From positions 180,001 through 212,000 of the forward strand of contig JBHLKY010000004.1 in NCBI GenBank assembly GCA_048886185.1: DNA of 32,000 bases, read 5' to 3'. Shown here one piece after another: positions 20,523 through 21,065 of the stretch. This DNA is from Candidatus Hermodarchaeota archaeon (GTDB taxonomy: Archaea; Asgardarchaeota; Heimdallarchaeia; Hodarchaeales; Hodarchaeaceae). The position numbers and the translations under genes are program-made. The notes beneath the pieces are model-generated. The model was not told where the DNA came from and did no database searches. It saw nothing but the letters and a program-made list of their open reading frames with translations. Each line of letters opens with the position of its first letter. Position 1 is the stretch's first letter.

Positions 20523-21065
20523 TTATTTCCTAAATTTGGGTATATAGAAATATATATTTGTTTTCTTCATTAACCAGTCCATTCCTACAATTATTCCTTC
20601 AGTAGTTTTTCAGGAAATAAATTGAACTTTATAAGTTTTGTTATATCCTTCTATAGTTAATTTTAAATCCTCTAGGAGCTTTTCTTCATCATTTGGGTTA
20701 ATTAGATCAATTTTATTCCCGAAGATAAGAAATGGGAGCTTCTGTAATGATCTTGAAACTCGAATTCTTTGAAAAAAGTCAAGTCCAAGAGAATATTCCT
20801 TTTGAGTTGAAACATCAAGAACGTAAATATGCCCTACAGAACCTAGAGTGAGTGGTTCCCACTTTTCTGTTGGTAACTTTTTCTCTAGTATGTTTATAGT
20901 ACGAAGGTGAACTTGATCAACTCGGGCTTGTTCAAAATCTCTAATACCTCCTTGAGTATTCGAATAAAAAATACCTGAGTACAAGCGAAATAAGAGAGAT
21001 GTTTTACCTGCATTTGGGGTACCTAAGATGCTAAAGAAATGGAAAATAATCATTTTTTGATCCAT
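20523..21065 (-). CDS. Arf/Arl-like small GTPase with an in-frame TGA in G5 (recoded gene or recent pseudogene)
   Basis: G1 GTPNAGKT, G4 GNKID, degenerate G3 (NILE). After TGA at 20612-20610 the same frame continues KTTEGIIVGMDWL to TAA at 20525-20523. Confidence 0.75.

What the first reader, a model, noticed from the sequence alone, without database searches (positions are those of the whole stretch)
20523..20612. In-frame TGA sits exactly in the G5 motif of an Arf-like GTPase
Seen: ...KVQFIS*KTTEGIIVGMDWLMKK..., 28 more sense codons before TAA. Known: Arf/Arl proteins end S/C-A/C-x-x-G-E-G-[LI]-x-E-G-x-D-W-L, so the downstream part is the expected last helix. The stop occupies the SAK/SCK middle position, one base from a Cys codon. 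Inference: selenocysteine or other readthrough (some Asgard lineages use Sec), a recent nonsense mutation, or a base-call error. I found no convincing SECIS, and TGA is a normal stop elsewhere in the window.
Basis: partly seen in the sequence, partly recalled or inferred. Interest (0 to 1): 0.7.

Follow-up and report, generated by a model that had tools for sequence, protein, structure and literature searches.

The report
Young nonsense mutation in Arf-like GTPase
A real TGA stop replaces a cysteine codon near the end of a small GTPase gene in an Asgard-type archaeon; the organism lacks all selenocysteine machinery and relatives have lost the same gene, so this is an ordinary, recently broken gene.

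Summary
On the minus strand an Arf-like GTPase gene (21065..20523) has an in-frame TGA at 20612..20610 (codon 152), the middle residue of the G5 "S-x-K" motif. It is followed by 28 sense codons that encode the expected last helix and a family-specific tail.

The TGA is not an assembly slip: contigs of four sequencing runs (10-59x, two haplotypes) all carry it.

It is not selenocysteine:
- The 96%-complete genome has no tRNA-Sec, SepSecS, PSTK, SelD or SelB over the family cut-offs.
- None of 83 genomes of the class has SepSecS.
- No SECIS-like RNA was found.
- TGA behaves as a normal stop genome-wide.

About 12 of 16 intact orthologues carry TGT/TGC (Cys) at this site, the rest Ile or Val, and none TGA. 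One T>A change explains the stop.

The gene is being lost repeatedly in this genus. Two sister species keep only decayed relics at the same locus and three have none. At least ~39 other paralogue-supported genes in this genome are broken by TAA, TAG or TGA, none at a Cys position.

Best reading: a young, population-fixed nonsense allele, i.e. a nascent pseudogene (about 0.8). Low-level readthrough cannot be excluded. Interest is low.

The parts
20523..21065 (-). Arf-like small GTPase gene, 180 codons if read through. G1 GTPNAGKT (residues 15-22) and G4 NKID (117-120) are intact. G3 DxxGQ is replaced by a family-conserved N-I-L-E-K. G5 is S-TGA-K.
   Evidence: Pfam Arf 48.6 bits, cut-off 22.3; Foldseek: ARF1/ARL and Asgard GerdArfR1, TM about 0.65
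20610..20612 (-). In-frame TGA, codon 152, at the position where most orthologues have TGT/TGC (Cys). A single T>A change at the third base explains it.
   Evidence: Present in contigs of 4 runs at 10-59x.
20523..20609 (-). Orphaned tail: 28 sense codons (end of the G5 loop, last helix 155-169, conserved FYIPxFRK end) plus the ancestral TAA stop. It keeps every residue that is invariant in the family.
   Evidence: (invariant T154 T155 G157 M166 K168 F173 I175 P176 F178 R179)
21019..21019 (-). Population SNP (G>A on the + strand; ACC>ATC, Thr16Ile, in the P-loop). It separates two haplotypes, and both carry the TGA.
   Evidence: table 3 (runs X3 and X4 against X1 and X2)
19901..20485 (-). Conserved downstream partner gene, a CxxCxxCC (PF03692) protein of 194 codons. 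The frame is open and 76% identical to its closest orthologue, but it has no ATG/GTG/TTG near its start: AAG stands where the closest orthologue has ATG. It may start at ATA 20485-20483.

Best explanation
The TGA is a genuine, recent nonsense mutation (TGT>TGA, Cys152>stop), fixed in the sampled sediment population, in a genus-restricted and dispensable Arf-like GTPase gene. Translation most likely ends at codon 151. That removes the rest of the G5 guanine-contact loop and the last helix, which packs against the core of the fold, so the product should be unstable and unable to hold nucleotide. This functional consequence is inferred, not shown. The gene is a nascent pseudogene. The tail still looks perfect only because too little time has passed for further decay.
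For: (1) The lesion is real: contigs from 4 runs (10-59x) and two haplotypes all carry TGA.
(2) About 12 of 16 intact orthologues have Cys (TGT/TGC where the DNA was read) at the site, 4 have Ile or Val, none TGA. One base change suffices, and the site tolerates ordinary hydrophobic residues.
(3) There is no recoding apparatus. The best tRNA-Sec hit scores 31.9 bits against a cut-off of 47 and is a tRNA-Gln(CTG). SepSecS scores 22 against 225 bits, PSTK 39 against 290, SelD 49 against 125, SelB 99 against 242. SepSecS is over the cut-off in 0 of 83 genomes of the class. ARAGORN found no tRNA with a UCA anticodon.
(4) No SECIS family matches at E<=10, and the 176 nt from the stop fold no better than shuffles (z = +0.58).
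(5) TGA is an ordinary stop: it ends 620 of 2188 long ORFs, and the in-frame extensions after it are the same as after TAA and TAG.
(6) The gene is lost recurrently. Only 6 of 21 genus genomes hold an orthologue. G003 and G009 keep decayed relics directly upstream of the same CxxCxxCC partner: P-loop deletion and loss of the C-terminal half in one, frameshift plus a large deletion in the other. G019, G011 and G006 have the partner without any Arf-like gene beside it.
(7) Nonsense-broken genes are common here. 52 paralogue-supported interruptions were found (22 TGA, 17 TAA, 13 TAG), about 39 outside one tandem array. The residues opposite TGA are mostly Ser or Trp and never Cys.
Against: The 28-codon tail is flawless and keeps all family-invariant residues. 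A relative-rate test shows no significant acceleration on the window's branch: 10-16 window-unique changes against 7-11 for the closest orthologue, p 0.09-1.0. That fits a very young lesion but equally fits continued selection through readthrough. Read support comes from assembled contigs of one study, not raw reads, and some of those runs may be the source of this assembly. No expression or proteomic data were available.
Confidence: 0.8

Rival explanations
1. Leaky termination: a fraction of ribosomes read UGA with a near-cognate tRNA (Cys, Trp or Arg), so some full-length functional GTPase is still made and the allele is tolerated or weakly selected.
For: The tail is undecayed and all invariant residues are kept. 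There is no rate acceleration. The TGA is shared by two haplotypes, so it is not a one-off variant.
Against: There is no suppressor tRNA, no stimulatory RNA structure, and no excess of open extensions after TGA genome-wide. The same gene is plainly decaying or absent in sister species, so no selection need be invoked.
Confidence: 0.12
2. Selenocysteine insertion at UGA152, making a selenoprotein GTPase.
For: The TGA aligns with Cys in most orthologues. Some Asgard classes (Lokiarchaeia, Thorarchaeia, Sifarchaeia) do use Sec (PMC11227280).
Against: No tRNA-Sec, SepSecS, PSTK, SelD or SelB is found in a 96%-complete genome. SepSecS is absent from all 83 genomes of the class. There is no SECIS. 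The site also accepts Ile and Val, so the Cys is not a redox residue. The survey in PMC11227280 sorts its Asgard selenoprotein sequences into seven families, and the word GTPase does not occur in its main text.
Confidence: 0.01
3. Sequencing or assembly error: the true base gives TGT.
For: This is a metagenome-assembled genome. Only contigs, not raw reads, could be laid, and all runs belong to one study.
Against: Four separately assembled runs at 10-59x depth agree. Two haplotypes, distinguished by a SNP 409 bases away, both carry TGA. A substitution outside a homopolymer is not a typical systematic error.
Confidence: 0.03
4. The 151-residue truncated protein is itself the functional product.
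For: G1 and G4 lie upstream of the stop.
Against: In the model the stop falls directly after the last core strand (145-150) and removes the G5 loop and the terminal helix 155-169. Every intact orthologue keeps the tail and it is highly conserved.
Confidence: 0.03

Closest known systems
Arf/Arl/Sar small GTPases (Pfam PF00025), including Asgard ArfR proteins such as GerdArfR1 (PDB 8OUM)
   Same: Pfam Arf match over the cut-off. The predicted fold superposes on ARF1, ARL1, ARL3 and GerdArfR1 (TM about 0.65). G1 and G4 are intact, with an S-x-K G5 followed by the G-x-D-W-L helix.
   Different: The G3 DxxGQ motif, with its catalytic Gln, is replaced by a conserved L-N-I-[LVW]-E-[NK]. There is no Gly2 for myristoylation. 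The family has its own signatures, RLYSGIFY and a C-terminal FYIPxFRK. It is usually paired with a CxxCxxCC protein. Here it is additionally broken by TGA.
Asgard selenoprotein genes (SelD, HdrA, FrhA/VhuU, FrhD/VhuD, Prx-like; Mariotti 2016 PMC4989117; PMC11227280)
   Same: An in-frame TGA aligned with Cys codons of homologues.
   Different: No Sec machinery, no SECIS, a single TGA-bearing member, a non-redox site that also accepts Ile and Val, and a class without SepSecS.
Ordinary nonsense pseudogenes in prokaryotic genomes
   Same: A single-step sense-to-stop change, intact orthologues, independent decay of the same gene in relatives, and many other stop-broken genes in the same genome.
   Different: Nothing substantial. 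It is merely very young, with no secondary lesions yet.

Membership tests
Arf-like small GTPase (PF00025) | Profile match above Pfam's gathering score over the whole domain | tested here: met
   48.6 bits against a 22.3 cut-off; residues 13-168 against profile 19-173 of 174, with the stop read through
Arf-like small GTPase (PF00025) | G1 P-loop GxxxxGK[ST] and G4 NKxD | tested here: met
   GTPNAGKT at 15-22 and NKID at 117-120
Arf-like small GTPase (PF00025) | G3 DxxGQ (switch II, catalytic Gln) | tested here: not met
   The paralogue's WDLGGQ aligns with INILEK. The whole subfamily has L-N-I-x-E-[NK] there.
Arf-like small GTPase (PF00025) | Intact G5 [ST]-[AC]-K loop and C-terminal helix | tested here: not met
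   The middle codon of G5 is TGA, and the helix lies beyond the stop
Arf-like small GTPase (PF00025) | Small-GTPase fold closest to Arf/Arl structures | tested here: met
   AF2 model with pLDDT 77.5. Foldseek top hits are ARF1, ARL1, ARL3 and Asgard GerdArfR1, E about 1e-8, TM 0.61-0.69.
Selenoprotein gene | In-frame TGA aligned with Cys in homologues | tested here: met
   TGT/TGC at the site in about 12 of 16 orthologues
Selenoprotein gene | tRNA-Sec in the genome | tested here: not met
   The best RF01852 hit scores 31.9 bits (cut-off 47) and is a tRNA-Gln(CTG). ARAGORN finds no UCA anticodon, although it found only 32 tRNAs.
Selenoprotein gene | SepSecS, PSTK, SelD and SelB/EFSec | tested here: not met
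   All are far below the curated cut-offs. SepSecS is over the cut-off in 0 of 83 genomes of the class, and the control M. jannaschii rings.
Selenoprotein gene | SECIS element in or after the gene | tested here: not met
   No SECIS family matches at E<=10 in 19900-21100. The fold z-score is +0.58. Only about 35 nt of spacer precede the next gene. A dedicated Asgard SECIS model was not available.
Selenoprotein gene | TGA recurring in several orthologues | tested here: not met
   Only the window's gene has TGA, among about 16 intact family members from genomes, protein databases and metagenomes
Nonsense pseudogene | The lesion is real in independent data | tested here: met
   4 runs and 2 haplotypes. 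These are contigs only and come from one study.
Nonsense pseudogene | Signs of relaxed selection or secondary lesions | tested here: inconclusive
   No further lesions. The relative-rate test is not significant. There is one non-synonymous SNP, T16I. The downstream partner lacks a canonical start.
Nonsense pseudogene | The gene is dispensable or lost in relatives | tested here: met
   Relics in G003 and G009, absence beside the partner gene in G019, G011 and G006, and an orthologue in only 6 of 21 genus genomes

The most novel reading that the evidence does not exclude
In this Sec-less Asgard lineage a UGA at a Cys position is decoded site-specifically (as Cys, or as Sec by an unrecognised route), so the GTPase is made full length. 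PMC11227280 reports TGA-containing homologues of known selenoproteins in a few Heimdallarchaeia/Hodarchaeales that lack the machinery, and another unchecked first-reader note in this genome reports a UGA at a zinc-ligand Cys.
Probability: 0.02. Interest if true: 0.85.

Novelty: already known. Interest (0 to 1): 0.15.

Why it matters
It matters little in itself. It is a clean worked example showing that a Cys/TGA correspondence with a perfect downstream tail does not indicate selenocysteine when the machinery is missing. It also flags that this genome carries many stop-broken genes, so other in-frame-stop findings in it should be read against that background.

A side benefit is the description of a genus-restricted Arf-like subfamily. 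It lacks the catalytic switch II motif, is paired with a CxxCxxCC protein, and is caught at several stages of loss across sister species.

Tried and rejected
- A scan of genome contigs with the protein found no relative.
- A scan of metagenome contigs gave five loci, none closer than about 54% identity, so no near-strain comparison of the codon was possible.
- No RNA holder was listed among public runs, so expression could not be examined.
- Rfam at gathering thresholds found nothing in the window, and ARAGORN found no tRNA there.
- ARAGORN with introns found only 32 tRNAs genome-wide. Its three intron-containing 'tRNA-Pyl(CTA)' calls were not checked and may be artefacts of intron placement. 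They concern TAG, not TGA.
- Programmed frameshift for the downstream gene: I tested whether its missing start reflects a frameshift from the ATG at 20519 across the A-run. The window would need +1 and the G021 orthologue -1, so there is no conserved mechanism. Non-canonical ATA/ATC initiation or simple start loss remains open.
- Pfam gave no roadblock/longin match for the 213-aa ORF at 22701-23342 that another note calls a roadblock protein.
- The first attempt to name the EF-like best 'SelB' hits failed on coordinates and was not repeated.

Full report
**Observation.** The gene lies on the minus strand from ATG 21065 to TAA 20525-20523. Its translation reads MDQKMIIFHFFSILGTPNAGKTS...NKIDL...YKVQFIS*KTTEGIIVGMDWLMKKTNIYFYIPKFRK*. 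The in-frame TGA occupies 20612-20610 and is codon 152.

With the stop read through, Pfam Arf (PF00025) matches residues 13-168 against profile positions 19-173 of 174, at 48.6 bits against a cut-off of 22.3. The domain therefore continues across the stop to its end.

An AlphaFold model (pLDDT 77.5) puts the last core strand at 145-150 and the terminal helix at 155-169. The stop thus cuts off the G5 loop and the last helix. Foldseek's best matches are ARF1, ARL1, ARL3 and the Asgard GerdArfR1 (8OUM), with TM about 0.65.

**Is the TGA real?** Public runs from one sediment study hold the stretch. Contigs of four runs, at word depths of 10-59x, cover 20000-21600 with no difference at 20610-20612. 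Two of them carry a G>A SNP at 21019 (Thr16Ile), so two haplotypes both have the TGA. These are contigs from one study, and some runs may be the source of the assembly. A single-assembly error is nevertheless unlikely.

**Orthologues.**
- Six genomes of the same genus carry full-length orthologues at 39-53% identity without stops.
- The protein database adds seven more, the closest at 69% identity.
- A metagenome scan adds five loci.
- At the TGA position about 12 of 16 intact members have Cys, encoded by TGT or TGC where the DNA was read. The others have Ile (ATT) or Val (GTT), and two lack the motif. None has TGA.
- One T>A change at the third base converts TGT to TGA.
- The tail is the best-conserved part of the family, and the window keeps all of its invariant residues and ends at the family's usual ...FRK position.

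**Selenocysteine.** The genome has 75 contigs, 4.84 Mb, 35% GC, and is 96% complete.
- The best tRNA-Sec hit scores 31.9 bits against a cut-off of 47 and is an ordinary tRNA-Gln(CTG).
- SepSecS scores 22 bits against 225, PSTK 39 against 290, SelD 49 against 125, and SelB 99 against 242.
- Control genomes such as M. jannaschii ring in the same searches.
- Across the whole class, 0 of 83 genomes have SepSecS over the cut-off.
- This agrees with the survey in PMC11227280. It finds Sec use in Lokiarchaeia/Helarchaeales, Thorarchaeia and Sifarchaeia/Borrarchaeales, states that other clades appear to lack it, sorts its Asgard selenoprotein sequences into seven families, and does not contain the word GTPase in its main text.
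- Earlier reports of this scan call the genome Hodarchaeales. I did not test that.
- No SECIS family matches the locus even at E<=10.
- The 176 nt from the stop fold no better than shuffled sequence, z = +0.58.
- ARAGORN finds no tRNA with a UCA anticodon.

**Genetic code.** TGA ends 620 of 2188 ORFs of at least 250 codons. The open in-frame extension after it (median 8 codons, 15.5% reaching 28 or more) is the same as after TAA and TAG. TGA is therefore a normal stop in this organism.

**Background of broken genes.** I joined every pair of in-frame segments separated by one stop and asked whether a paralogue elsewhere in the genome aligns across the junction.
- 52 cases passed: 22 TGA, 17 TAA and 13 TAG. 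About 39 of them lie outside one tandem array on contig 15.
- The paralogue residues opposite TGA are mainly Ser and Trp, with single cases of Arg and Leu. All four lie one base change from TGA.
- None is Cys.
- Stop-broken genes are thus common here, all three stop codons take part, and there is no Cys-specific TGA signal.
- The window's own gene falls just below my 15-residue flank threshold and is not in this list.

**Recurrent loss of this gene.** The Arf-like gene is followed in six of the seven orthologous loci examined by a CxxCxxCC (PF03692) gene; at the seventh (G017) the partner was not found.
- In G003 the same neighbourhood (CitMHS-type transporter, then the Arf-like slot, then CxxCxxCC) holds only a relic. 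It reads MVRFHNTSKYPFFLILSSSNA..., with the P-loop and the RLYSGIFY block deleted and the C-terminal half gone.
- In G009 only the first 29 residues remain, followed by a frameshift and a deletion that runs up to the partner gene.
- In G019, G011 and G006 the partner gene sits beside an unrelated divergent gene.
- The window therefore shows the earliest stage of a loss that has happened several times in the genus.

**Age of the lesion.** A relative-rate test against the closest orthologue shows no significant acceleration: 10-16 window-unique changes against 7-11, p 0.09-1.0. At positions conserved in the outgroups the window has 5 unique changes against 1. Together with the flawless tail this means the lesion is young. 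It does not exclude that some readthrough keeps the gene under selection.

**Verdict.**

| Reading | Probability |
|---|---|
| Real, young TGT>TGA nonsense allele (nascent pseudogene) | about 0.8 |
| Functional leaky readthrough | about 0.12 |
| Sequencing error | about 0.03 |
| Functional truncated product | about 0.03 |
| Selenocysteine | about 0.01 |

The finding is ordinary.

Noticed in passing
window 20477-20485 (minus strand); also L012 (G021): The CxxCxxCC gene downstream of the GTPase has no ATG, GTG or TTG near its start. AAG stands where the closest orthologue (L040) has ATG, and the frame opens with TAA-ATA. The G021 orthologue likewise opens with TAA-ATC and has no canonical start. 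This could be ATA/ATC initiation or start loss. Another first-reader note in this genome also proposes ATA initiation.
   Followed up: partly
window 20523-21065 and orthologues (A1): The whole subfamily lacks the G3 DxxGQ motif, having a conserved L-N-I-x-E-[NK] instead. It has its own signatures, RLYSGIFY after the P-loop and a C-terminal FYIPxFRK. It may be a non-hydrolysing 'pseudo-GTPase' branch of the Asgard Arf-like proteins, usually paired with a CxxCxxCC protein.
   Followed up: partly
genome contig C15, about 94.5-115.7 kb, + strand (outside the window): A long array of paralogous units of about 100 codons lies in a single reading frame. The units are separated only by single TAA, TAG or TGA codons. 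It turned up in the genome-wide scan for stop-interrupted genes.
   Followed up: no
whole genome: At least about 39 paralogue-supported genes outside the C15 array are interrupted by a single stop codon (about 20 TGA, 11 TAA, 8 TAG). Examples are C3 near aa index 80117 (TAG opposite Trp, 75% identical paralogue) and C5 near 14928 (TGA opposite Arg). The genome seems rich in young pseudogenes.
   Followed up: partly
window 21238-23342 (+): A CitMHS/ArsB-type permease (PF03600) is transcribed divergently from the GTPase gene and overlaps the start of a 213-aa ORF. The same permease neighbours the GTPase relic in G003. Pfam gave no significant family for the 213-aa ORF.
   Followed up: partly
genome C3:182110-182310, C11:98585-98688, C14:26674-26782: ARAGORN with introns calls three 'tRNA-Pyl (CTA)' genes with long introns. 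They may be artefacts of intron placement in Asgard tRNA genes. This was not checked.
   Followed up: no
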